Below, piece by piece: positions 1 through 11,702 of a stretch of 11,702 nucleotides of DNA. The notes beneath the pieces were generated by a model. The model was not told the origin of the DNA and searched no databases. It saw nothing but the letters and a program-made list of their open reading frames with translations. Position 1 is the stretch's first letter, and each line of letters starts with the position of its first letter. The stretch comes from Octopus sinensis (lineage: Eukaryota). The stretch covers positions 1 through 11,702 of the forward strand of contig NW_021826902.1 in NCBI RefSeq assembly GCF_006345805.1, in the 5' to 3' direction. The translations under genes and the position numbers were made by a program.

Positions 1-38
1 ACACACTCATACACACTCACACGCACATATATACGTAT

Positions 39-266
39 GTGTGTATGTGTCTGTCTTTGAGTCTTGTTACCCCCACCCCCCACTTGACAGCTGGTATTGG
101 TTTGTTTTATGCATTTGGTAACCTAGCGATTCCGCAAGAGAGACCGATAGATTTATAAAAATCAAAATGGACAGACACCGGTGTCAATTTGTTCCGCTAA
201 ACCCTTCAAGGCGGTGTCCTCGCATGGCCGCAGTTGACTCTCTGAAAGCAATCAAATAAAAAGATA
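39..266 (+). mobile_element. 3' half of a decayed octopus-type tRNA-SINE, following its internal CA/TG microsatellite; the head lies outside the window
   Basis: Blocks 'ACTTGACAGCTGGTATTGG', 'GTAACCTAGCGATTCCGCAAGAGAGACCGATAG' and 'AAGGCGGTGTCCTCGCATGGCCGCAGT', ending in an A-rich tail (AAATAAAAAGATA), resemble an abundant octopus SINE 3' region as I recall it. Not checked against a library. Confidence 0.65.
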
Positions 267-352
267 CGTATACCAGCCAATAACTACATCGGCGTGTTCT
301 ACAATTTGTACTTTCACAATGACAGGTATTGTTCCATGCTGCTGAGTCAGAC

Positions 353-390
353 ACTTACCTGTGTAAACAAGCAAGAAGCACATGAGTCAG
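353..390 (-). other. Juxtaposed 3' and 5' splice-site consensus (branch point, pyrimidine-rich tract, CAG|GTAAGT)
   Basis: Minus strand reads CTGAC-TCATG-TGCTTCTTGCTTGTTTACA-CAG|GTAAGT. The putative branch A is at 387 and the junction is between 359 and 358. Confidence 0.4.
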
Positions 391-730
391 ATTTTTTGTG
401 TGATAGATATTCTGATGGTGAGCGGAAGTAATGGTCGTGGTAACAATAGCGAACGGACGGGATGGGTCGGGCCGGAGTTGGCTGTCATTATCTCGACGAT
501 TAATTAATCGATGACTTTTTAATGATAAATCATGGTCTCGTATTGAAGGCTAGTTGGATCGATAACGATGGTTCTCGATGTGAACGTTAAGATAAATGAT
601 GTATGAGCAACGATGAGGAGAAGATAAGGAAGAAGACGATGGTAGAAGTTAATATTCAGTAAAATGGAGGCCATCGGAGAGACAATCAGGACGACTGTGT
701 TAATTTTTGTCGTTGCTGTTGGGGACATTA

Positions 731-860
731 ATGATGATAATAATGAAGATAATGATGATGATATTAAGAGCGCTGCTAAAAAAATAAAATAGCGATGGTG
801 GTGATGATGATGACGATGATGATAACGACAATGACGATGACGACGATGATAGTAATTTTG

Positions 861-893
<33 letters not shown>

Positions 894-1050
894 GTGGTGG
901 TGATGATGATGATGATGATGATGATGATGGTGATGATGATAATGGTGATGATGATGATGATGATGATAATGGTGATGATGATAACGACAATGACGATGAC
1001 GACGATGATAGTAATTTTGAGGAAGATGATGATGATGATTATGATTATGA
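731..1050. repeat. Imperfect (GAT)n/(ATC)n trinucleotide repeat with an internal 50-bp perfect duplication
   Basis: Runs of GAT with GGT/GAC/AAT variants. The unit GATGATGATAACGACAATGACGATGACGACGATGATAGTAATTTTGAGGA occurs at 815-864 and 974-1023. This explains the poly-H, poly-S and poly-M ORFs. Confidence 0.95.
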
Positions 1051-1139
1051 TTGCTTACTTGAGCAAAGGCATTGAGATTGTACCGAAAAAAGATCCTTAA
1101 AACAAAAAAAAACTCCATACAATTTATATGTATACTTAC

Positions 1140-1268
1140 CATGTATAATTTTAGAATAGATTCGCGTTAAAAATGCAAGCAAAACGGACCAGACATAATG
1201 ATCGGAGACAAGAGAAAAAAGAAACTGTGCATGGTAGTAAATATCTATTGTTCGCTAAGTAGTGTTAG
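1140..1268 (-). other. Candidate 129-nt non-coding (5'UTR-like) exon ending in ATG
   Basis: Minus strand: upstream TTTTCCTCTTT-CACTAAC-ATTTAACATT-CAG| acceptor (AG at 1270-1269) and downstream ATG|GTAAGT donor (exon ends at 1140). All three frames contain early stops. Confidence 0.3.
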
Positions 1269-1629
1269 CTGAATGTTAAATGTTAGTGAAAGAGGAAAAC
1301 ATTTCTGCCGAATCCACGAGAAATCTGCAGTTACTCCACCCGGACAACGACATTAGATTGAGACATTTGATAATAATTGAGATATTTGGATACGCAACTA
1401 ATTGCTTCAGTGCTAATCTCAAAACAGCAAGGCATCATAAAACCAGAAATAATTAAGAAATTGCCGCTACAAGCCATCTAAAGGCGGTGTGAAAGTATGT
1501 GAAGCGTTCTAATAGAGCGTGTAATAGATGCACGCACAAGTGGGTAGACGTGTAAACATACGCATGAGTCAAAGATATACAATCCACGCATGCAATGGCA
1601 TTCATGCTGGCACGCATGCGTACCTTCGT

Positions 1630-1674
1630 ACATACATACGTGCATGTATAGTGTATGTATATATATGTGTGTGT

Positions 1675-1708
<34 letters not shown>

Positions 1709-1710
1709 GT

Positions 1711-1746
<36 letters not shown>

Positions 1747-1903
1747 TGTGTGTATATATATATATATAAATATACTATATTTCTATATATATATATATGT
1801 ATATATATACATACATACACATATGTGTGTACAATATACATACACACACATGAATATATATATACATGAATACATGCACACATATATATGATATATATGC
1901 ATA

Positions 1904-1950
<47 letters not shown>

Positions 1951-2020
1951 TTGAAGATATGTATTCACACACACACATATAAACCTATACATACTTACGC
2001 ATACACAAACACACACATAT
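1630..2020. repeat. Compound (TA)n/(TG)n/(CA)n microsatellite
   Basis: Pure TA runs (e.g. ~1688-1707, ~1915-1948) and a TG run (~1712-1752); the Y/I/H/T/C/V-rich ORFs are artefacts of these. Confidence 0.95.
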
Positions 2021-2208
2021 TGCATCAGAGTATTTTAAGCGTTTTTCCAGTGAGCAGTGCGTCGATGCTGTTATGTGCAATTCACAGCAAAATATCATAT
2101 TAAAAAGAATAAAAAATAAAAAATGCAAAAAAATCAAATAACTCTATTGACATTACAAATAATTGTTGACGAAAATTCTTGGTTGTGGTTTAACATTTAT
2201 TGCTTAGC

Positions 2209-2260
2209 CATAAATTCTAAGCGCTTTCACGTCCATGATTCTTCATCAGGCGAATTTACG
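2209..2260 (-). ncRNA. Degenerate minimal type I hammerhead ribozyme motif (Penelope-like element type)
   Basis: Minus strand: CGTAAATTC gc CTGATGA AGAATCATGGACGT GAAA GCGC TTA GAATTTATG. It has both core boxes, a 9-bp stem I (one G-U pair) and a palindromic AGCGCT stem III. Stem II pairs poorly. Confidence 0.55.
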
Positions 2261-2576
2261 GTTAATTGTGGCAGGATACATAGGTAAATAACTGTTCCAG
2301 ACATGAAAAAGACTATTTGCATTGTCCACAGCCTACAGAGCTCTGTTCTTAGAGAATTGTGCCTTCGTAATCTGGAATTTTGTGGCATCAGAGAGTATGG
2401 ATAGGTCTATGGGTGTATATTTTTTGTTATATACTGTACTGGGTGGGGTTGTTTGTGAAAATGTTCTCATATACTGATGTAAAACTGCCCTTTTGTAGAT
2501 TTGATGTACGACCCTTCATCGGTGATTTAAGAAAAAATGTAATGTATGTAAGGTTGTTTGTTCCTATATTATGATT

Positions 2577-2653
2577 GTGTGTCTGCGCGTGTGTATGTGT
2601 ATGTGCGTGTGTGCGTGTATGTGTATATGAATGTATGTATGAATATATATATA
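2577..2653. repeat. (TG)n/(TA)n microsatellite forming the left flank of the transposon
   Basis: TGTGTG/TGTATG/TATATA run ending in the TA target dinucleotide at 2652-2653. Confidence 0.9.
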
Positions 2654-2677
2654 CAGGATGCAGTGAATAAATTGTCG
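2654..2677 (+). repeat. Left terminal inverted repeat of the maT element
   Basis: CAGGATGCAGTGAATAAATTGTCG, preceded by TA. Confidence 0.9.
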
Positions 2678-2773
2678 TTTAAATTACACAAAAAATGAAA
2701 ATAACACTGACATCATTTTAACAAATATTTACCAAAATTACATAAAAATATCTTGAAATACTAAAGAGTAAAT

Positions 2774-3822
2774 TTATTCAATAAAATCGCCATTGACTTC
2801 AATCACGGCCTCCAGACGACTTCGGAATCTCTTGCAACTCTTCTAGACAGTCTCCTTTTTTAAGTTGGTCAATGCTGCCATATCCTTGCCGTCAGTACAT
2901 TTTGGTGTTACAAGGAGTTTTGTTGGTCTCACGCTCATCTGTGACCCACACATGACAACCAAGGGGGTTGCAGTCTGGGGAGCTAGGTGGCCAGATGTTA
3001 GGGGTGATGTGATCGCAGAAACTGTCTGACAGCCATGACTGGGTTCTCCTGCTTGTGTGGCATCGTGCAGAGTCCTGTTGCCAGACATAGAGTCTTCCAG
3101 CAGCCACCCTCTTCACCCAGAGCAGTACTACCTCCTCCAGGCACTCAATGTAGACCTCTGTATTGAGTCTGAGGCCGTGTGGGAAGATGAATGGAGGTAT
3201 AACGTCGCCATCACTAATGATCACTCCAAACACCATAATGTTGACTGGACGTTTTGCTTTTATCACTCTCGGTATATATTTTGGGGACACGGCAAGCCAA
3301 CGGATTTTCTGGGTGTTCATCATCTGATCTTGGCAGAAATTTATCTCGTCTGAGAAAAACCAAAGCAAGTTCGGTTGGAGGGGATGTTTGAGTTTGTTCA
3401 AAAGCTTCGCAGCGCGGTCTTTCCTCTTGTCCTTGATGGCTTGGGATAAAAATTGACCATTTTCATCTTGTATTAGGAATACCGAATGTCTTCATGCACT
3501 ACCTGGCTGATAGGAAACTCAGGCACTTCCATGTCCCTGGCGATGGACCTCATCCACTAGGAGGGATCGTTGTCAATCATGGCCTGAATCTTACCAACAA
3601 ATTCAGGATTTTTTTTCTTATCTGAACGATCAGAGTGAGTTTTCCGAGTTGCTGTACCTTTGTAGTCACCATTAAACTGATCCAACTCTTTCTGAATTCT
3701 CTGCACTGTCCTCAGATTGACACATCCAAACACTCTGAAATTTTTGTACTGGAGCTACCAGTGCGAATGCCAAGTAGTACAGCATGTCGTTTCCAAATTT
3801 CTGGCAGAGTGAAAAACATCAT
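2774..3822 (-). pseudogene. DD37D (maT) transposase pseudogene
   Basis: Reconstructed reading: MMFFTLPEIWKRHAVLLGIRTG...NLRTVQRIQKEL (HTH-like)...MIDNDPS*WMRSIARDM...WFFSDE...IMVFGVIISDG...WQQDSARCH...WPPSSPDCNPLG...RFRSRLEAVIEVNGDFIE*. There are 37 residues between the second D (QQD) and the third catalytic position, which is here G. Stops at 3557-3559, 3473-3475 and 2843-2845; frameshifts near 3721, 3459 and 2880-2900. Confidence 0.93.
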
Positions 3823-3931
3823 GGCGCTATTTTTCTCACAGGCGGTGCCCAACTAACCCTACTATACAGCGTAGTCGAGAAAATCAAAAACAAACAATGC
3901 GCATATGTGAAATTAAATATATACAAAATGG

Positions 3932-3955
3932 CGACAATTTACCCATCGCACCCTG
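3932..3955 (-). repeat. Right terminal inverted repeat of the maT element
   Basis: CGACAATTTACCCATCGCACCCTG, followed by TA. Confidence 0.9.
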
Positions 3956-3977
3956 TATATATGTTTGTATTCATGTC

Positions 3978-4016
<39 letters not shown>

Positions 4017-4233
4017 TATATATATAAATGTATGTGTATGTGTACACATGCAATATATATATGTGTATGTATGTATGTATGTATGTATGTAGTATGTATG
4101 TATATATATATATATTTACATACATGCATATGCATATTTATATATTTATGCATTCACATTCATATGTATTTATATGTTTGTACATATATTTAGACATATA
4201 TATATATATGCATATATGTATATATATGTGTGT

Positions 4234-4278
<45 letters not shown>

Positions 4279-4324
4279 AACATACACACATACACACACA
4301 TGTATATATATTTTTTGTGTGTGC
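3956..4324. repeat. Compound (TA)n/(TATG)n/(CA)n microsatellite forming the right flank of the transposon
   Basis: TA runs at ~3981-4013 and ~4237-4268, and a TATG run at ~4064-4100. Confidence 0.95.
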
Positions 4325-6084
4325 CTGCTGAATAAATCTACGTAGAAAGGGAAAATAAACTATTCTACAATGTGGACAAATAAACGCGGTAATAGATCTA
4401 TCCAATCTGATAACGATGGTAATTTCCAGTTACGTAACAAGTGCTTCTCGTACTGTCTGTATTTTGTAACATTTCAACCTTAGCGATTAAGTAGAGTCTA
4501 TAATTGCGTACATTTTCAAGATTAGATTTTAATCAGTTGTGTAAAGGTTATATATTTTTTTTATTTCCGTTCTTGTAAGGTCTTTTCATTAAGAATCTAT
4601 TTAATGTTATTTCGAAACTACTTTTTGAGCTAACACTTTGGTATAATGTTATTATACAACCGGTTTCATTTTCATAGTGATAACATCCACTTCATATTTC
4701 GTTGCTGCTGTATTACAAGAGATACTGTGTTGATATGTACTGACTTTAATACATGAATACCTGATCTCAGTTTTCATACTAGTGGTATAATTGTAGTTTA
4801 ATAGCTGTTGTATATACATGCATAAACGTAATACCCTACTCCACTCAAGTTTTTAAGACACTTAATGACCTCGACAGAAAGATTTCCAATTTCTTCCCAA
4901 GAAAACAATTAAACGATAGATCTGAGTTTTCAATATATCAAGGGCATATGAAAGAATTGGAAATTACCTTCACTACTAGAACATTCCTGACAGCCCCCTA
5001 ACATCCCTACCTGTATTCATTGAGGGGTGTATTCTTTCTCTTTTGTATTATCTATTAATTAGCATTCGTACTCAGCTGGTATGTGTGTCTTCGCGTATAT
5101 TTATATGTATGTACACATACATGTGTATGTGTGTTGTGTGTGTATACGTCTCCTTTTCTACTTATACACCTTTAGTTTTATTTGTTGTCTTAAAATTTTT
5201 ATTTCATTATTTAATTATCACATTTCCTTCTTTTATTGATTTCTGTTTATTATTGTCAACACAAAGAGAAATAAATAAATTTCGTGCATTAAGCTTTATT
5301 CCCACACTAAGGAATACTTTTAAAGATTTAAAATTGTATATATGTTAAATCACGTTCAATAAACAAGTTTGATAAATATCCAATGAATATTAATTTAGAT
5401 CAAATATCAATCAAGTAATAGCTTACTATACGCTCGTACAACTATGTTCAAAATTCCGCTGAAACTAACGATTTCACTGCTTTGCTTTCTTGGAATCACA
5501 GGCGGCCTTTATCGAGACGACAGGCTTCTATTCCTAAGTGGTGTCAATCCGTGAGTGTCCAATGGATTCAGAAAAAATCCTAGTTTCAAATAATTGTAGA
5601 AGCTAATCTCCCCAAGACAAACTATGTTATTCTAGTCCTATCCACTTTCTTTTCTTACATGAGTCACAAACCTAATGAAATGTTAAATTAATTTTCTTAG
5701 ACACTTTATTTATCCAACCTTTCTTTCTCACTTAATGTACCTATTTTTTTTTTACATATAACAATGAAACTTTGGTCAGAAACAATTTTCACCTCCCATC
5801 CCAATGACAGAAACAGCAAATAACAAGATACGAAACAACATAACTTAATACGCGCCTCGGTCCAATATAACAGTCACTAAACCATTAGATCAAGTATCTC
5901 TAAGTCCCTTAAGAAGTATTTTCTCTTAAGTCATAAATAAAATTGCTATCAACTTTCGCATTCACCTACTCAATAGCTATTCACAAAATATTCCGCGTTG
6001 TATTTAAAGAAAAGTTAAGTTTTAAAAGCCGGTTATATTCTCATACCGATAACATACCGATAACAATGTCTTATACCTCATTTT

Positions 6085-6325
6085 GGCGTGCATGGCTTAG
6101 TGGTTAAGGTGTTGATCTTATGATCGTAAGGTTATGGTTTCGATTCCTGGATCGGGTGATGCGTTGTGTTCTTGAGCAAAACACTTCATTTCACCTTGCT
6201 CCAGTCCACTCAGCTGGCAAAAATGAGTAATCCTGCGACGGACTGGCGTCCCGTCCAGGTGGGGAATTTCTATGCCGCTGAAACCGGGAAACCGGCCCTT
6301 ATGAGCCCGGCATGGCTCGAGAAGG
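6085..6325 (+). mobile_element. tRNA-derived SINE with a CORE-like central domain
   Basis: Starts GGCGTGCA; A box TGGCTTAGTGG (6093-6103); B-box-like GTTTCGATTCC (6137-6147). CORE-like block TTGTGTTCTTGAGCAAAACACTTCATTTCACCTTGCTCCAGTCCACTCAGCTGGCAAAAATGAGTA follows, then CCTGCGACGGACTGGCGTCCCGTCCAGG. It is a GC-rich island in AT-rich flanks. Possible partial TSD ATACCTC at 6073-6079 and 6326-6332. Confidence 0.85.
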
Positions 6326-6741
6326 ATACCTCGATACACGTGCCTATATCAACTAATATGCTTCAACATTGTTTTTGTGTATAAAATATTTTATGTTATT
6401 AAACAATCCTCTAATAAATATTTTTTCACCCCACTGTTATTAACGTTTGTAAATCCACCATAGTTAACTCCTCATTGACGTGTATAACTGTTAGCCTTAT
6501 TTTGTATTGTTTTTGGCTTTGATTGTATTAACATTTCAACTGACTTCACTTATTTTTTCATCTTTGCTTCGTTCTATCTCGACACTCCAAAGAGTATTAT
6601 CGAAACTGTATTATCATATTAAATGTCGATTTAATCGAATAAAAAGCACCCCCCACTCTATATTTGTTGTATATTAAGTACTTTCTATTCGGCAGTGACT
6701 ACTTCTGTTTCAACCAACAAATTTTTTTTACCATACAACAA

Positions 6742-6754
6742 ATATATATATATA

Positions 6755-6786
<32 letters not shown>

Positions 6787-7045
6787 CAAAAAAATATACT
6801 TATATATATAACACACATATTCATATATATATATTTTATATTAAAAATATATGTATATATACATGTATATATACAGACATATGTATATATATATGTATAT
6901 ATATGTATATATGCATATATGCAGCTATATATGCATGTATGTGACATCGGATGATTGCATACAAGAATGTATGAAAGTATATAAATATATCTGTATATGC
7001 ATGAGTGTATGTTTATATTTATATATATATATGTATGTGAATGCA
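6742..7045. repeat. Degenerate (TA)n/(TATG)n low-complexity tract
   Basis: Alternating TA with occasional G/C substitutions. Confidence 0.9.
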
Positions 7046-7844
7046 TAAACAAAACAAAATAAAAACAAACATATTGGCATAAGGGTTTTTTTGTTACGAT
7101 TTTCATTTATTTTTTAAGTCAGTTTCTGAATGGAAAAAGTATCACAGGAATATGAAGGCTTGAAAGAATTGCTTCGGCCAATATCACCAGGGCTTTTGAC
7201 TGTCTTTTTTTTTAAATTTAAAAAAATATATTTTTGCTTTTTCTTTTAAAATATATATCGGCGTTCTTTTATAAATTTTGAAATATTTTATATATTTATT
7301 TAACGGTATAATAAAATTTGTAAGTGCTTGTACCATAGAGAAACATCAACCAAAATATACTGATTGGCCTAATGCATTGCCCTGTGTAACTCCACTACCT
7401 GGTCTTTGGGTGACTTTAGCGGATTTCATTCTATTTTGAGGCTATGCCCGAATTTTTCTGCAAAGGTACTGCTCCTTTATCGAAATACTAATTAAAAAAG
7501 ATGAAAAAGAAAAAAAAACCAAACACTCTATCTAACCTTAGGAATTTTATCAACGCAGATTACCTCTAGTCTTCTAGAACTAGGGGTTTTCTTTTTAGCT
7601 TCCCTATTTATTAAGATAATTATGTAGCAATACGTTGTCAATATGGTGATAATTGGCCGAAGTATTTTTTCATTTGTTGTATCTGGTAGAAAAGTAGCAC
7701 ACAAGCAAATTTACTTCCATCGTCCAAGAAAGAAAAAAATAGGGGCAAATTGGTGGTTTTTAAAAAAAAAATTTTGTATGAAAGAGGAGAAAATTGCAAA
7801 GTCATATAAAGTTATTTCTAAAACTGTAACAGTTTCATGGAAAA

Positions 7845-7899
7845 TGTGTGTGTATTTGTGTGTGTGCTTGTGTGTGTGTATCCGTGCGTGCGCATGCGT
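7845..7899. repeat. (TG)n microsatellite
   Basis: Imperfect TG run ending in GCGTGCGCATGCG. Confidence 0.85.
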
Positions 7900-8012
7900 T
7901 TAAATCTAGATGTACCCTCATACACTAACAACCGGCCTATAAGTTCAGACCCTTAATGGATTCTAACATTAGGGTCAACTGCATAAAGTATTCTTGCTTA
8001 AAGTAATGCACG

Positions 8013-8020
8013 TATATATA

Positions 8021-8073
<53 letters not shown>

Positions 8074-8484
8074 ATATATATATGTGTATATATATATGTA
8101 TATACATATATATATATATATACATACATACATATATATATTTATATATGCATATAAAAACAGATGAGTGGTACAATAAGGCACCAATATAATTATGTAT
8201 GTATTTATATATATATGTATATATATATATGTATATATATATATGTGTATATGTGTGTATATATATACAGGCATATATATACATTATTATATGTATATGT
8301 ATACATATATATACACACATGCACACATACATACATACAGTCTAGGTGACATATAAAATATACTTAATACTTGAACACAAGCATACAAATATGCACGCAC
8401 ACACAATCAAACATCAAAACACACACTCAAACACATACACACACACACACACACACACACTCACATATGTAGTATATGTGTATA
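8013..8484. repeat. Compound (TA)n ... (CA)n microsatellite region
   Basis: Long TA runs at ~8013-8150 and ~8205-8265, and a CA run at ~8437-8460. Confidence 0.93.
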
Positions 8485-8912
8485 AAGAAATGAAGTAATA
8501 AATATTCCTTCAAACATTATTAATATTTGTTGCTGACATTTAGAATCAAGGTCACATGGTCAACACTCTGGCTTCACTCAGCTTTCAAATACCAGACGAC
8601 ATGGTTTATTCTAAGGCATCGCATGATTACTCGTTTGCATACGTATATCGTGCTGTTATTTAGTTATACATCAAATAAGAACGACAACGACCACGAAGAT
8701 GTCAAGCCATTCAATCTATCTCCACACTATTCGTATATTCTTCACTTATTTTACGGTTTTTTACGGTTTTTTTCAGTATGCTTCTTTTCTGACAATGAAT
8801 TATATTCTTTTCTGACATCAGAATTATATTCTCAAAGAACACACAGTGAGTCTCTTTTGTGGATTTTACTGAAGTGATTTCTGCCGACAAAGCAAAACTA
8901 CCAGTAGTATTA

Positions 8913-9316
8913 ATCTTTTCTACTCTAGGCACAAGGCCCTAAATTTTGGGGGAAGGGGGGGGCAGTCGATTAGATCGACCCCAGTACACAACTGGTACTT
9001 AATTTATCGACCCCGAAAGATGAAAGGCAAAGTCAACCTCGGCAGCATTTGAACTCAGAATGTAGCCGCAGACGAAATACCTATTTCTTTACTACCCACA
9101 AGGGGCTAAACACAGAGAGAGACAAACAAGGACAGACAAACGGATTAAGTCGGTTATATCAACCCCAGTGCGTAACTGGTACCTATTTAATTGACCCCAA
9201 AAGGATGAAAGGCAAAGTCGACCTCGGTGGAATTTGAACTCAGAATGTAGCAGCGGACAAAATACCGCTAAGCATTTCGCCCGGCGTGCTAACGTTTCTG
9301 CCAGCTCACCGCCTTT
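8913..9316 (-). mobile_element. Full-length octopus-type tRNA-SINE with a duplicated central domain and an 11-bp TSD
   Basis: Minus-strand head GGCGGTGAGCTGGCAGAAACGTTAG (from 9313); B box GAGTTCAAATTCC (9241-9229); central block GAGGT(C/T)GACTTTGCCTTTCATC...GGGGTC...GTACCAG present twice (9148-9266 and 8964-9081). Flanked by a perfect direct repeat CAGTAGTATTA at 8902-8912 and 9317-9327. Confidence 0.92.
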
Positions 9317-9532
9317 CAGTAGTATTATTGAAAACTTATAGCGTATAAGTACTAATATATTACGGATCAGTGTTGCTTTTGGAAATGAATATTCAATAGT
9401 TTGTTCAGCTGTATCATATACTCGTGAACATGGTGTGGAAGTGACGTGAACTGTTAACATTATTCTCACGTGGATCAAACGTGAAACTCAATGACAGGGT
9501 CATGCCCTAGAACTGCAGCTATGAGTGCATAC

Positions 9533-9614
9533 GTGTGTGTGTGTGTATGTGTGGCTGCGTGTGTGTGGCTGTGTGTGAGTATGTGTGTGAGTGTATGCTT
9601 ATGAATATATATAT
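9533..9614. repeat. (TG)n/(TA)n microsatellite
   Basis: Imperfect TG run followed by a short TA run. Confidence 0.85.
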
Positions 9615-9617
9615 AAC

Positions 9618-10250
9618 TTTTTACATACGCCTAAGTGCCTCGTCTGCTGAAGAAAAAGTAAGAAATTGCTATACTAATGGCGGATATTGTGGTAGAAAGA
9701 CGTGTATATCACTGACTTATTGCTTTAAGACAATCAGACTGTCTTTTCTTCAATTACATGTCAATTTTGGAAAATGACTGACACTTCAGATTATCTCTTC
9801 TCATTTAGAGCTGGAACTAATAGCTACCAAACGATTAGTTTACCTACTCCAAAAGGGGGACAGTTTCAATAACCCCCAAAATTATTTTGTATGTTATGTA
9901 ATTTGCTTATAATCGATTTTGCAGTTCAAATAGATGCCACTGGCAATTCGGAGTTATTTCTCTTAGCTTATTTTCTTTTCATATATGCAAATTACCTCGG
10001 CCATGTGTTCTACTCTTGTTTTATATTTGTTTAAATGTCTCAGCTGTTAAACATACGTTCCGGAAAGTACTTTATTGATACTGATGACATCTATTGAGGT
10101 AGAAACACGTGATCTTCTTGTCTTCAGACAATCAGACTGTACATGAATATGAAGAATGTCGCTCTTTCGCATTTGGAGTTGGTGCCAATTGATATCAGAC
10201 GACCTACTCTCTTTAGAGGCGGAAATAATTTTAATAAATCAATAATTTAT
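9618..10250 (+). repeat. Diverged ~400-bp tandem direct repeat (about 1.6 copies), each copy carrying a decayed hammerhead motif
   Basis: Collinear shared blocks: TAA(G/A)TG(C/T)CTC..CTG(C/T)T(G/A)AA (9632/10032); ATACT(A/G)ATG....TATTG.GGTAGAAA.ACGTG (9671/10078); perfect AGACAATCAGACTGT (9728-9742 and 10126-10140); CATTT(A/G)GAG(C/T)TGG (9802/10170); ACCTACTC (9842/10202). Confidence 0.8.
10076..10114 (+). ncRNA. Decayed minimal hammerhead motif, copy B (copy A at ~9666-9711)
   Basis: TGATA CTGATGA C-ATCT-ATTG-AGGT-A GAAA CACGTG (ATC). Copy A retains the matching 3' end GTG-TA-TATCA, which is complementary to TGATA. Confidence 0.55.
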
Positions 10251-10287
10251 CTCATAAGTTATTTTAATATACGTACAGTCATTTTTG

Positions 10288-10290
10288 TTA

Positions 10291-10336
<46 letters not shown>

Positions 10337-10348
10337 ATATATATATAT
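10288..10348. repeat. (TA)n microsatellite
   Basis: Near-pure TA run separating two repeat modules. Confidence 0.9.
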
Positions 10349-10497
10349 CACCTCGGATCTTCTTTCTTCTCCTATGTTTCGACGAAGAGCTCCGCTCGAA
10401 ACGTCATACCCTCCTTCCCTTTTTTCCTGAGCGCCTAATAATACTTTATTGTTCCACTCTTTGCGTTTGTTGTCTTTTTTGTTTTCTTGTTGGATTA

Positions 10498-10501
<4 letters not shown>
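10349..10501 (+). mobile_element. ~150-bp Penelope-like 3'-end/pseudo-LTR fragment between (TA)n tracts, with a decayed hammerhead at 10376-10409
   Basis: GTTT C-GACGA A GAGC-TCC-GCTC GAAA CG TC ATAC: perfect 4-bp stem II, GAAA, ACGT palindrome and GUC triplet, but the core lacks one nucleotide (CUGACGA to CGACGA). Followed by a T-rich tail and flanked by TA repeats on both sides. Confidence 0.6.
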
Positions 10502-10534
<33 letters not shown>

Positions 10535-10563
10535 GGATATATATGAATAATACACACACACAC
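10502..10563. repeat. (TA)n/(CA)n microsatellite
   Basis: TA run at 10502-10529 followed by short CA runs. Confidence 0.9.
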
Positions 10564-10594
10564 TCTTTATTATAAAGCCGCAAAACATCAAAGA

Positions 10595-10636
10595 AACTGC
10601 TACTCAGAGTTTCACATACCCGTTCGTCAGACAGTT
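10595..10636 (-). ncRNA. Apparently intact minimal type I hammerhead ribozyme; predicted cleavage after GUA, between 10601 and 10600
   Basis: Minus strand: AACTGT CTGACGA ACG-GGTA-TGT GAAA CTC-T-GAG TA^GCAGTT. Stem I is 6 bp (AACUGU/GCAGUU), the core is CUGANGA, stem II is 3 bp plus a tetraloop, then GAAA, a quasi-palindromic stem III ACUC(U)GAGU, and NUH = GUA. Confidence 0.8.
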
Positions 10637-10687
10637 ATGATTCAGGATTGGAACAAGAAATACTCTCTGGAGAGAGCAGCACCAGAT

Positions 10688-10811
10688 AAACATGAAACGT
10701 ATAGAAGTTCAATGAGGTGCAATTTGTGTCTAACTGAAAAATTCTTCATCCTTTTCCACGATAAATACGCTCTGAACTAAAAGGTTGGAGCTCTTAAATT
10801 TCTGTAGATAA
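10688..10811 (+). pseudogene. Remnant of the C-terminus of a Penelope-like element GIY-YIG endonuclease
   Basis: Translates as KHETYRSSMRCNLCLTEKFFILFHDKYALN-(+1 T at 10778)-KRLELLNFCR*. This matches my recollection of the CxLCLxEK...LNKRxEL...CRH C-terminal motif of invertebrate Penelope-like ORFs. It is absent from the ORF track because it is short and frameshifted. Confidence 0.7.
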
Positions 10812-10958
10812 TCCACGGAGTATGAAATGTCGAGCGAAAAAATACCATACGGGTAACATTGACTTTCGCATTGGAATTCGACTTAGAACCGGCACCACTT
10901 TGTACAACATTTGTTTTACATTTTTGCCTTTCAAGTAAAACTTCGACTGGAAACGAAC

Positions 10959-11240
10959 TATATATTTTATTTTTATTATATATATATAATTTATTTTTAT
11001 TATATATATTATTATATGATATACATATAATTATTTTATTTTTATTACATATATTATTATATTATATACATATATATTATTTTTTTTATCATATATTATC
11101 ATATTATATACATATATATTATTTTATTTTTATTACATATATTGTTATATATATTTTAATTTTTATTTTCATTATTTTATTTGTTATTATTTTACTGTCA
11201 TTATTTTTATTTTCATTATTTATTGTAACTTTTTACTTTT
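10959..11240. repeat. AT-rich degenerate (TTA/TA)n low-complexity region
   Basis: Nearly G/C-free, with recurring TATTATATACATATATATTATT units. Confidence 0.85.
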
Positions 11241-11399
11241 AATTTACACCTTTAATAATCATATGAAAGTTTTTTCTTACATTCGTAATTTAGCCCATAG
11301 AACCTTTCACGTTGATTTTTAATGTACACATAAAAAAGGCAGCCATCATTGCCCAAAATGTGTTGTATAGATACTGAACACCCGAATGAATTTTTTAAC

Positions 11400-11523
11400 C
11401 ATTTTTTTTTAGTTATTATTTTTGAATTTTTTGTTATTTTATTTTATTATTATTATTATTATTATTGCTTAATTATTTTACTATATTCGTTTTTAATTTA
11501 TTATATTATTATTATTATTATTA

Positions 11524-11558
<35 letters not shown>
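11400..11558. repeat. (TAT)n trinucleotide microsatellite
   Basis: TATTATTAT runs at ~11445-11466 and ~11504-11556. Confidence 0.9.
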
Positions 11559-11570
11559 GATTGTTAATAA

Positions 11571-11640
11571 GACAGGAATGCTGACAGAATCTTAGGGGCT
11601 GGACAAACGTTTAGTAATATTTCAAAATCTCTCGTGGAGG
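11571..11640 (+). mobile_element. Highly decayed 5' head of the same SINE family as 8913-9316
   Basis: CTGACAGAATC-TTAGGG-GCTGGACAAACGTTTAGTAATATTT aligns by eye to the head CTGGCAGAAACGTTAGCACGCCGGGCGAAATGCTTAGCGGTATTT. Confidence 0.5.
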
Positions 11641-11702
11641 CGCCATCCAACTAAAAGCAAATATATGGGAAACTACCACCTGTGTCATCTCTTGTGAAGG
11701 GT

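What the first reader, a model, noticed from the sequence alone, without database searches (positions are those of the whole stretch)
9618..10250. ~400-bp tandem repeat whose two decayed copies jointly reconstruct one hammerhead: candidate non-LTR retrozyme or pseudo-LTR array
Seen: two collinear diverged copies offset by about 360-407 bp. Copy B keeps the 5' half (TGATA CTGATGA..GGTA GAAA CACGTG). Copy A has a broken core (CTAATGG) but keeps the 3' half (CGTG TA TATCA). The composite is a complete type I HHR with stem I UGAUA/UAUCA, palindromic stem III CACGUG and a GUA cleavage site. Known: non-coding monomers of a few hundred bp in tandem, with one HHR each, define animal non-LTR retrozymes, which yield circular RNAs and are thought to be mobilised by Penelope-like elements. 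Inferred: this is a fossil of such a family, possibly uncharacterised in cephalopods.
Basis: partly seen in the sequence, partly recalled or inferred. Interest (0 to 1): 0.72.

Follow-up and report, generated by a model that had tools for sequence, protein, structure and literature searches.

The report
Fossil hammerhead retrozyme, Penelope-style insertion
This is one decayed copy of an old, genome-wide 408-base non-coding repeat that carries a hammerhead (self-cutting RNA) motif and was likely pasted in by a Penelope-type retrotransposon enzyme, probably from a circular RNA; the kind is known, and this copy is predicted to be dead.

Summary
Two collinear decayed copies lie at 9618-10289 (alignment score 96 vs at most 42 in 500 shuffles), and the two hammerhead halves are as described. 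They are one insertion of about 1.75 units of a 408-nt monomer, between (TA)n tracts. The family is dispersed (roughly 500 units or more) and old (81% median identity to its profile consensus). The consensus is non-coding, AT-rich and strongly self-pairing (z about -7). It has a canonical-type type I hammerhead: GUC site, stem I GCUGUG/CACAGC, palindromic helix III. No copy examined is joined to a Penelope ORF, so retrozyme is favoured over pseudo-LTR. Insertions show Penelope footprints: 44 of 67 3' ends in two windows about 60 nt apart, scattered 5' ends, microsatellite targets, some inverted arms. They run through the cleavage site, implying a circular or multimeric template. The composite ribozyme is predicted not to fold in place. 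Cleavage and circular RNA are untested. The scan has already noted many younger families of this kind in this genome; this sequence family was not among them. New member of a known kind; modest interest.

The parts
9618..10289 (+). One insertion of about 1.75 units of a 408-nt hammerhead-bearing monomer (monomer position 319, through a full unit, to about 204-219; positions counted from the cleavage site)
9618..10020 (+).
10021..10289 (+).
9668..9712 (+). Hammerhead A: broken core (CTAATGG), unpaired helix II region, GAAA, GACGTG, cleavage triplet GTA ending at 9706, stem I 3' strand TATCAC
   Evidence: sequence; does not fold as a hammerhead
10076..10111 (+). Hammerhead B: intact CTGATGA, 3-pair helix II, GAAA, palindromic CACGTG; cleavage site and stem I 3' strand deleted
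9707..10112 (+). Stretch between the two cleavage positions = the unit-length RNA (about 407 nt) that intact ribozymes would have released
   Evidence: inferred
9533..9616 (.). (TG)n then (TA)n microsatellite at the 5' flank
10289..10348 (.). (TA)n microsatellite abutting the 3' end; likely the insertion target

Best explanation
The stretch is a decayed copy of a dispersed, non-coding 408-nt repeat with a type I hammerhead motif, a non-LTR retrozyme, that was likely inserted into a (TA)n tract by the reverse transcriptase and GIY-YIG endonuclease of a Penelope-like element and is now predicted to be inactive. Shown: 408-nt period, seamless head-to-tail units, hammerhead consensus, no ORF, strong predicted self-pairing of the consensus, two preferred 3' ends, scattered 5' ends, microsatellite flanks, no attached Penelope ORF among the loci examined. 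Inferred life cycle: multimeric transcripts paired their palindromic helix III (ACACGUGU) between neighbouring units, cut at GUC and released 408-nt monomers; these were probably ligated into circles closed by the long stem I; a Penelope enzyme nicked a microsatellite, primed at one of two sites about 190 or 130 nt before the cleavage site and copied round the template, here for 1.75 laps. The two units then decayed independently.
For: Family: 337 and 980 first-look candidates. A 16-mer of the window has 12 exact hits vs 1 in the control; all 10 hits outside the window and its twin are family members, and 0 of 66 earlier loci hold that 16-mer. Period 408, GC 37.5%, consensus fold z -6.9 linear and -7.2 circular (30 shuffles each), with stems I and II formed in the circular fold. 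Longest stop-free frame 76 aa (first version of the consensus). Core positions retained in 434 of 477 cells (0.91) vs 0.82 expected, pattern-selected loci excluded. Compensated double changes in stem I and its extension: 46 of 73 vs 32.0 +/- 4.2, 0 of 300 shuffles. Across 25 of 30 pattern loci plus the 2 window copies: 74.1% of cells paired vs 57.4%, 9 of 11 pairs with two-sided changes. 3' ends: 44 of 67 in two 25-nt windows (201-225: 17; 265-289: 27) vs 20 of 67 for 5' ends and a uniform mean of 17.5, max 23; 6 of 10 independent loci end at 200-227 or 272-280. Microsatellite-like 3' flank in 31 of 67 vs 10% background. Head-to-head arms in 7 of 76 loci. 51 of 67 loci cross the cleavage site; only 2 of 67 end within 10 nt of it. 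Units of one locus share more derived bases than expected: 116 vs 82, P 3e-4; 15 of 16 loci. No profile hit in 55 Penelope loci. 7 of 93 sequences have a Penelope peptide hit nearby, none collinear and directly 5' of the element. Young Penelope-like ORFs with RT and GIY-YIG exist in the genome.
Against: No autonomous partner with shared sequence was found, so the Penelope link rests on footprints alone. Arrays are short: 23 of 67 loci exceed 1 unit, 6 reach 1.5, 2 reach 2; most loci were picked by BLAST score, not at random. Only 3 of 7 two-armed loci have one arm at each preferred end, and in 4 of the 7 an arm starts inside the internal hairpin, where strand assignment is less sure. The long internal hairpin shows no covariation (53 of 111 vs 49.8; 92 of 300 shuffles), and one of two stem I pairs tested singly is not significant (p 0.22; the other p 0.003). 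The base of helix II is a C-A mismatch in the consensus, not the usual G-C. Shared derived bases could partly reflect local mutation bias. The Penelope query set (50 peptides) may miss a clade: the first set missed the Penelope-type fragment in the window itself.
Confidence: 0.85

Rival explanations
1. The repeat is the pseudo-LTR (3' end) of an extinct autonomous Penelope-like element, and all loci are 5'-truncated partial tandems of it.
For: The footprints are those of Penelope elements (PMC8557442, passages). Xenopus retrozymes are homologous to pseudo-LTRs (10.64898/2026.07.22.740005). A Penelope 3' end lies 380 nt downstream in the window.
Against: Copies longer than one unit re-enter the same monomer seamlessly. 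Upstream flanks share only inverted arms or other common repeats (5 pairs). No ORF remnant in the consensus. No collinear Penelope peptide directly upstream in 93 sequences. The ribozyme has a 6-bp helix I, short helix II and palindromic helix III, unlike the long-helix-II minimal motifs seen on the genome's ORF-bearing elements L158 and L159. The window's Penelope fragment family is not homologous to the monomer.
Confidence: 0.08
2. Same retrozyme, but copied from linear uncleaved multimeric transcripts rather than circles, with tandem units coming from genomic source arrays.
For: Seamless units and passage through the cleavage site are equally expected from a multimer. Weak helix III ribozymes cleave poorly as monomers (PMC4209133). 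No RNA evidence for circles here.
Against: Stem I and its extension (monomer 1-29 with 337-375) close the unit exactly at the cleavage site and covary, as expected of a unit-length circle. Related animal retrozymes accumulate mostly as circles (PMC7229834).
Confidence: 0.3
3. This locus keeps a working ribozyme by selection: B's catalytic strand and A's substrate strand are exactly one core of a strand-exchanged double hammerhead and would cut a host transcript after 9706.
For: All 13 pairs of that core are intact. Both units keep ACGTG in helix III, which only 4 of 35 units not chosen by pattern keep. In a 95%-identical contig of run X1, the 3 changes inside 10076-10111 fall at tolerated positions.
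Against: The fold costs 12-21 kcal/mol in three window contexts (probability below 1e-8) vs 1.6 kcal/mol in the consensus context. The stem I extension is gone and the window unit folds no better than shuffles (z -0.6 to -1.1). The locus was picked for looking this way out of hundreds. Three changes are too few to show selection. No strand or expression data.
Confidence: 0.03
4. A local tandem duplication or satellite with a chance hammerhead-like look.
For: Rfam finds no hammerhead here; neither copy folds as one.
Against: Dispersed family on many chromosomes; 52 exact core-pattern hits vs 0 in the control; covariation; units of one locus are about as diverged as units of different loci.
Confidence: 0.01

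Closest known systems
Metazoan non-LTR retrozymes (Cervera and de la Pena 2020, PMC7229834; seen: search passages and sections 13, 14, 17). Closest example: Mytilus galloprovincialis 350-390 bp repeats
   Same: Monomer of a few hundred bp (408; reported range 150-450), one type I hammerhead per unit, head-to-tail copies, GC below 45%, no ORF, no LTR, strongly self-paired predicted circle in which the ribozyme stems are free to form.
   Different: This family is old and decayed, with short arrays (up to 3 units seen). No RNA shown. The paper's main text does not mention octopus or cephalopods (0 occurrences). It proposes Penelope mobilisation from co-occurrence, not from insertion ends.
Vertebrate non-LTR retrozymes as Penelope derivatives (Li, Clavereau and Pollet, bioRxiv 10.64898/2026.07.22.740005; seen: parts 1-3 of 5)
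   Same: Tandem type I hammerhead units, mostly few units per locus, co-occurring with Penelope-like elements.
   Different: There 24 of 57 Xenopus families match Repbase elements, nearly all Penelope pseudo-LTRs; here no match to the Penelope loci sampled. No mollusc in their sample. By their rule (two consecutive complete ribozymes) this locus is not an active retrozyme.
Penelope-like elements and their pseudo-LTR hammerheads (PMC4209133, parts 1-2 of 4; Craig et al. PMC8557442 and its preprint 10.1101/2021.04.23.441226, passages)
   Same: 5' truncation, partial tandems, inverted copy at the 5' end, a tail on one end only, microsatellite targets, ribozyme needing a dimer.
   Different: No RT-endonuclease ORF; canonical-type rather than minimal ribozyme; the gap between the two 3' ends is about 60 nt rather than the 30-40 bp tail described.

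Membership tests
Metazoan non-LTR retrozyme | Monomer of about 150-450 bp in head-to-tail copies | tested here: met
   408-nt period; 23 of 67 loci over 1 unit, 2 of 67 at 2 or more
Metazoan non-LTR retrozyme | One type I hammerhead per monomer | tested here: met
   Consensus core, GUC site and three helices; core conservation and covariation. Broken in both window copies.
Metazoan non-LTR retrozyme | Non-coding, GC below 45-50% | tested here: met
   Longest stop-free frame 76 aa; GC 37.5%
Metazoan non-LTR retrozyme | Dispersed multi-copy family without LTRs | tested here: met
   primer binding site and polypurine tract were not searched for
Metazoan non-LTR retrozyme | Highly self-paired predicted monomer circle | tested here: met
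   Consensus z -7.2, 64% paired; lost in the window copy
Metazoan non-LTR retrozyme | Self-cleavage in vitro | not testable with these tools
   Needs an assay; predicted lost at this locus
Metazoan non-LTR retrozyme | Expression as circular RNA | tested here: inconclusive
   Only contigs of runs guessed to be RNA were available
Penelope-like element (autonomous) / pseudo-LTR | RT plus GIY-YIG ORF joined to the repeat | tested here: not met
   No collinear upstream ORF in 93 sequences; no profile hit in 55 Penelope loci
Penelope-like element (autonomous) / pseudo-LTR | Minimal hammerhead (helix II 7-8 bp, helix I 4-5 bp, little or no helix III) | tested here: not met
   Helix II 3 bp plus a mismatch, helix I 6 bp plus extension, palindromic helix III (definition from PMC4209133)
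Penelope-type insertion footprint (works like) | Fixed 3' ends with variable 5' truncation | tested here: met
   44 of 67 vs 20 of 67; 6 of 10 independent loci
Penelope-type insertion footprint (works like) | Microsatellite targets | tested here: met
   31 of 67 3' flanks, 15 of 67 5' flanks, 10% background
Penelope-type insertion footprint (works like) | Inverted copy at the 5' end, tail on one end only | tested here: inconclusive
   7 of 76 loci two-armed; 3 of 7 with one arm at each end site; absent at the window's locus

The most novel reading that the evidence does not exclude
The genomic copies are a fossil record of a Penelope enzyme reverse-transcribing a small RNA circle from two staggered start sites. 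The stagger is about 60 nt in this extinct 408-nt family and 55 nt (positions 179 and 234) in a young 363-nt family that is unrelated outside the ribozyme core. That would make it a property of the enzyme rather than of the RNA, and would tie animal retrozymes to Penelope machinery over a long span of cephalopod evolution.
Probability: 0.4. Interest if true: 0.6.

Novelty: new member of a known kind. Interest (0 to 1): 0.3.

Why it matters
How animal retrozymes get back into DNA is proposed, not shown. This family adds an old, extinct example whose insertion ends show the same Penelope-type pattern as a young unrelated family, which suggests a long-standing partnership and gives defined priming sites to test. 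The locus itself is probably inert, and younger families in the same genome are better material for experiments. No paper on cephalopod retrozymes turned up in five searches; Repbase, Dfam, subscription journals and supplements were not seen.

Tried and rejected
Rfam scans of the window and of 9600-10960: no hammerhead family hit among the rows shown. Tandem Repeats Finder and the ungapped repeat finder did not list the pair (only the 20 largest families were shown). A 22-nt pattern from the first consensus gave 0 hits; that consensus had included reverse-strand hits of the internal hairpin, so it was rebuilt without them; period and folding z were unchanged. A third 3'-end cluster at 329-350 and a count of 7 loci with 2 or more units came from loose alignment into microsatellites and inserted repeats; stricter scoring removed the cluster and left 2 loci. 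The first Penelope protein set missed the clade present in the window; the test was repeated with 30 added peptides. Shared flanks between loci were common repeats or inverted arms, not a shared upstream ORF. Contigs of runs guessed to be RNA cover that family patchily and cover parts of the window locus at depth 4-5; neither shows strand, level or circles. The 363-nt family is not alignable to the 408-nt monomer outside the core (score 41 vs 47 +/- 11 shuffled). No target-site duplication could be read because both flanks are microsatellite. No host gene was identified in about 58 kb around the chromosomal twin (ORF listing only). No age in years is given: no rate was available.

Full report
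Setting. The window is a whole unplaced contig (G000:C3373) of a 2.72-Gb genome. It is probably an octopus: earlier scan notes on the same genome say so; I did not test this. Bases 9013-11702 have a 97.8% twin on C11 at 15.0 Mb. The finding is supported by a raw-data contig (run X16, 9619-10280, no substitution).

Observation. The two copies align far above chance (score 96; 500 shuffles 26.6 +/- 3.9, max 42). The offset falls from 407 to 360 nt because copy B has lost 9 nt (cleavage site and stem I 3' strand), 13 nt and about 20 nt. Neither copy folds as a hammerhead alone, and Rfam lists none.

Family. The region finds diverged copies on many chromosomes (47 matches from 40 scored of 337 candidates; 46 from 40 of 980 with another copy as query). 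I built a profile in scripts from 66 loci plus the window (27 new loci after leaving out the window and its twin, 13, the rest; six loci that repeated a place already held were dropped). The period is 408 nt and GC is 37.5%. Median identity to the consensus is 81% (75-90%). Units within one locus are about 70% alike, the same as between loci, so most change came after insertion and the family is old. A window 16-mer has 12 exact genomic hits vs 1 in the control. The 10 outside the window and twin are all family members, and none of the 66 earlier loci has the exact word; with a per-unit retention of about 0.019 this gives roughly 500 units as a loose lower figure.

Ribozyme. The consensus reads stem I GCUGUG, CUGAUGA, a helix II of three pairs on a C-A mismatch with a 6-nt loop, GAAA, CACGUG, UC, then CACAGC; stem I continues past a 3-nt bulge. 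The pattern for this core has 52 exact hits vs 0 in the control, spread over several families. In 25 of the 30 loci returned (five left out: one duplicate, four with a shorter helix II region) plus the two window copies, 74.1% of cells pair vs 57.4 +/- 2.3%, and 9 of 11 pairs change on both sides; helix III was fixed by the pattern and says nothing, and relatedness inflates the contrast. Within the family, with pattern-selected loci excluded, core positions are kept in 434 of 477 cells vs 0.82 expected. Stem I with its extension has 46 compensated of 73 double changes vs 32.0 +/- 4.2; the long internal hairpin has no excess. GUC is the commonest triplet (15 of 42), GUA occurs in 3. The architecture matches the canonical metazoan type I motif with a short palindromic helix III that needs a second copy to cleave (PMC4209133), not the minimal motif of Penelope pseudo-LTRs.

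The composite. B's 5' half with A's 3' half is one core of the strand-exchanged double hammerhead (my inference from the dimer model in PMC4209133), and all 13 pairs are intact. Both units share G-to-A changes at two inner stem I positions, matched by C-to-T in A's 3' strand, so the source RNA likely had ATA/TAT there; the outer two pairs may be chance. In context the fold costs 12-21 kcal/mol, vs 1.6 in the consensus. The locus is therefore predicted dead.

Coding and folding. The longest stop-free frame in three joined monomers is 76 aa. The consensus folds at -125 kcal/mol (z -6.9) linear and -119 (z -7.2) circular, with positions 1-29 pairing to 337-375 so that the unit closes at the ribozyme. 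The window's unit has lost this (z -0.6 to -1.1).

Insertion anatomy. With strict scoring, 44 of 67 3' ends fall in two 25-nt windows (201-225 and 265-289), against 20 of 67 for 5' ends and 17.5 (max 23 in 300 trials) for uniform ends. In 10 independently found loci, 6 end at 200-227 or 272-280; the others end at 42, 47, 86 and 182. 3' flanks are microsatellite-like in 31 of 67 loci, 5' flanks in 15, background 10% (looser ends). Seven of 76 loci have a head-to-head inverted arm; in three (L026, L047, L049) one arm ends at each site, in four not. 51 of 67 loci cross the cleavage site, and only 2 end within 10 nt of it, so the template was not a linear cleaved monomer. Units of one locus share 116 derived bases vs 82 expected (16 loci, P 3e-4), as for copies of one template variant, though local mutation bias may add to this. 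The window's insertion starts at monomer 319 (9618) and ends at 204-219 (10272-10289), in (TA)n on both sides. 5' truncation, partial tandems, inverted 5' copies, a one-sided tail and microsatellite targets are described for Penelope-like elements (PMC8557442). A young 363-nt family with the same helix III (94% between loci, a 99.5% tandem) is unrelated outside the core and ends at 234 or 179 followed by (TA)n in 4 of 6 arms mapped, the other two at 242 and 73.

Pseudo-LTR test. The genome holds many young GIY-YIG elements, including 780-aa RT-endonuclease ORFs, two of which carry minimal hammerheads. The family profile hits none of 55 Penelope loci. Fifty Penelope peptides hit 7 of 93 family sequences (66 loci of 3 kb, 16 re-fetched at 9-10 kb, 10 new, the window); none is collinear and directly 5' of the element. 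In L049 the Penelope fragment faces the 3' end of the inverted arm across a microsatellite. An unsampled clade cannot be excluded.

Mechanism. Shown: anatomy, family, ends, absence of an attached ORF in the sample. Inferred from PMC7229834 and PMC4209133: dimer-dependent cleavage, ligation to circles, target-primed reverse transcription by a Penelope enzyme. I put retrozyme with Penelope mobilisation at 0.85, and a circular rather than multimeric template at about 0.6-0.7 within that.

Novelty. This is a new family of a known kind. Five literature searches listed no paper on cephalopod retrozymes; PMC10886601 mentions both words but I saw only its listing; supplements and repeat databases were not seen. 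The scan's own notes already hold 238 entries fitting 'hammerhead retrozyme' in this genome, several on younger families with the same two-ended pattern; none resembles this sequence. Those notes gave me the lead to map ends and are not independent support. Interest 0.3.

Noticed in passing
window 10668-10955 (+): 3' end of an old Penelope-type element (CNLCL...LN motif in one frame; relatives give GIY-YIG-type peptides; 1236 first-look candidates for 10560-10955). Not homologous to the 408-nt monomer.
   Followed up: partly
window 10585-10637 (-): Second hammerhead-like motif (CTGACGA...GAAA, 5-bp stem I) in a separate short repeat family that some loci hold in tandem.
   Followed up: partly
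window 10349-10500 (+): Very high-copy short repeat with a hammerhead-like core; most laid contigs have an extra C after 10379 that this copy lacks; summed depth near 1e6 in run X16.
   Followed up: partly
window 2205-2256 (-): Hammerhead-like motif (CTGATGA...GAAA GCGC TTA) in a repeat with no match among the fetched loci; hairpin z -2.7.
   Followed up: no
window 2650-3960 (-): Decayed Tc1/mariner-type DNA transposon: weak DDE_3 hit (E 0.003) and terminal inverted repeats beginning TACAGG.
   Followed up: partly
window 1-9000 vs G000:C11:14.99-15.00 Mb: Only 9013-11702 matches the chromosomal twin (97.8%); the match stops inside the common repeat at 8990-9314, so the contig may be a haplotig with a structural difference or a misjoin.
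   Followed up: partly
L061:4545-5518; also L062, L063, L064: Young 363-nt hammerhead family: 2.2 units at 99.5% plus an inverted arm starting at the cleavage site; circle folds at -133 vs -86 +/- 5 kcal/mol. Probably the family of note e1-9876701.
   Followed up: partly
L159, L164, L157, L156: Near-identical 780-781-aa RT plus GIY-YIG ORFs in many copies; L159 has two identical minimal hammerheads 5.9 kb apart: a young Penelope-like family.
   Followed up: partly
L031-L060: The CACGUG/GUC hammerhead is shared by several unrelated repeat families, with a variable, often mismatched pair at the base of helix II.
   Followed up: partly
L065 (-) near 1774: 146-aa frame with motifs that recall a Rep/helicase of circular single-stranded DNA viruses (recalled resemblance, not tested).
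   Followed up: no
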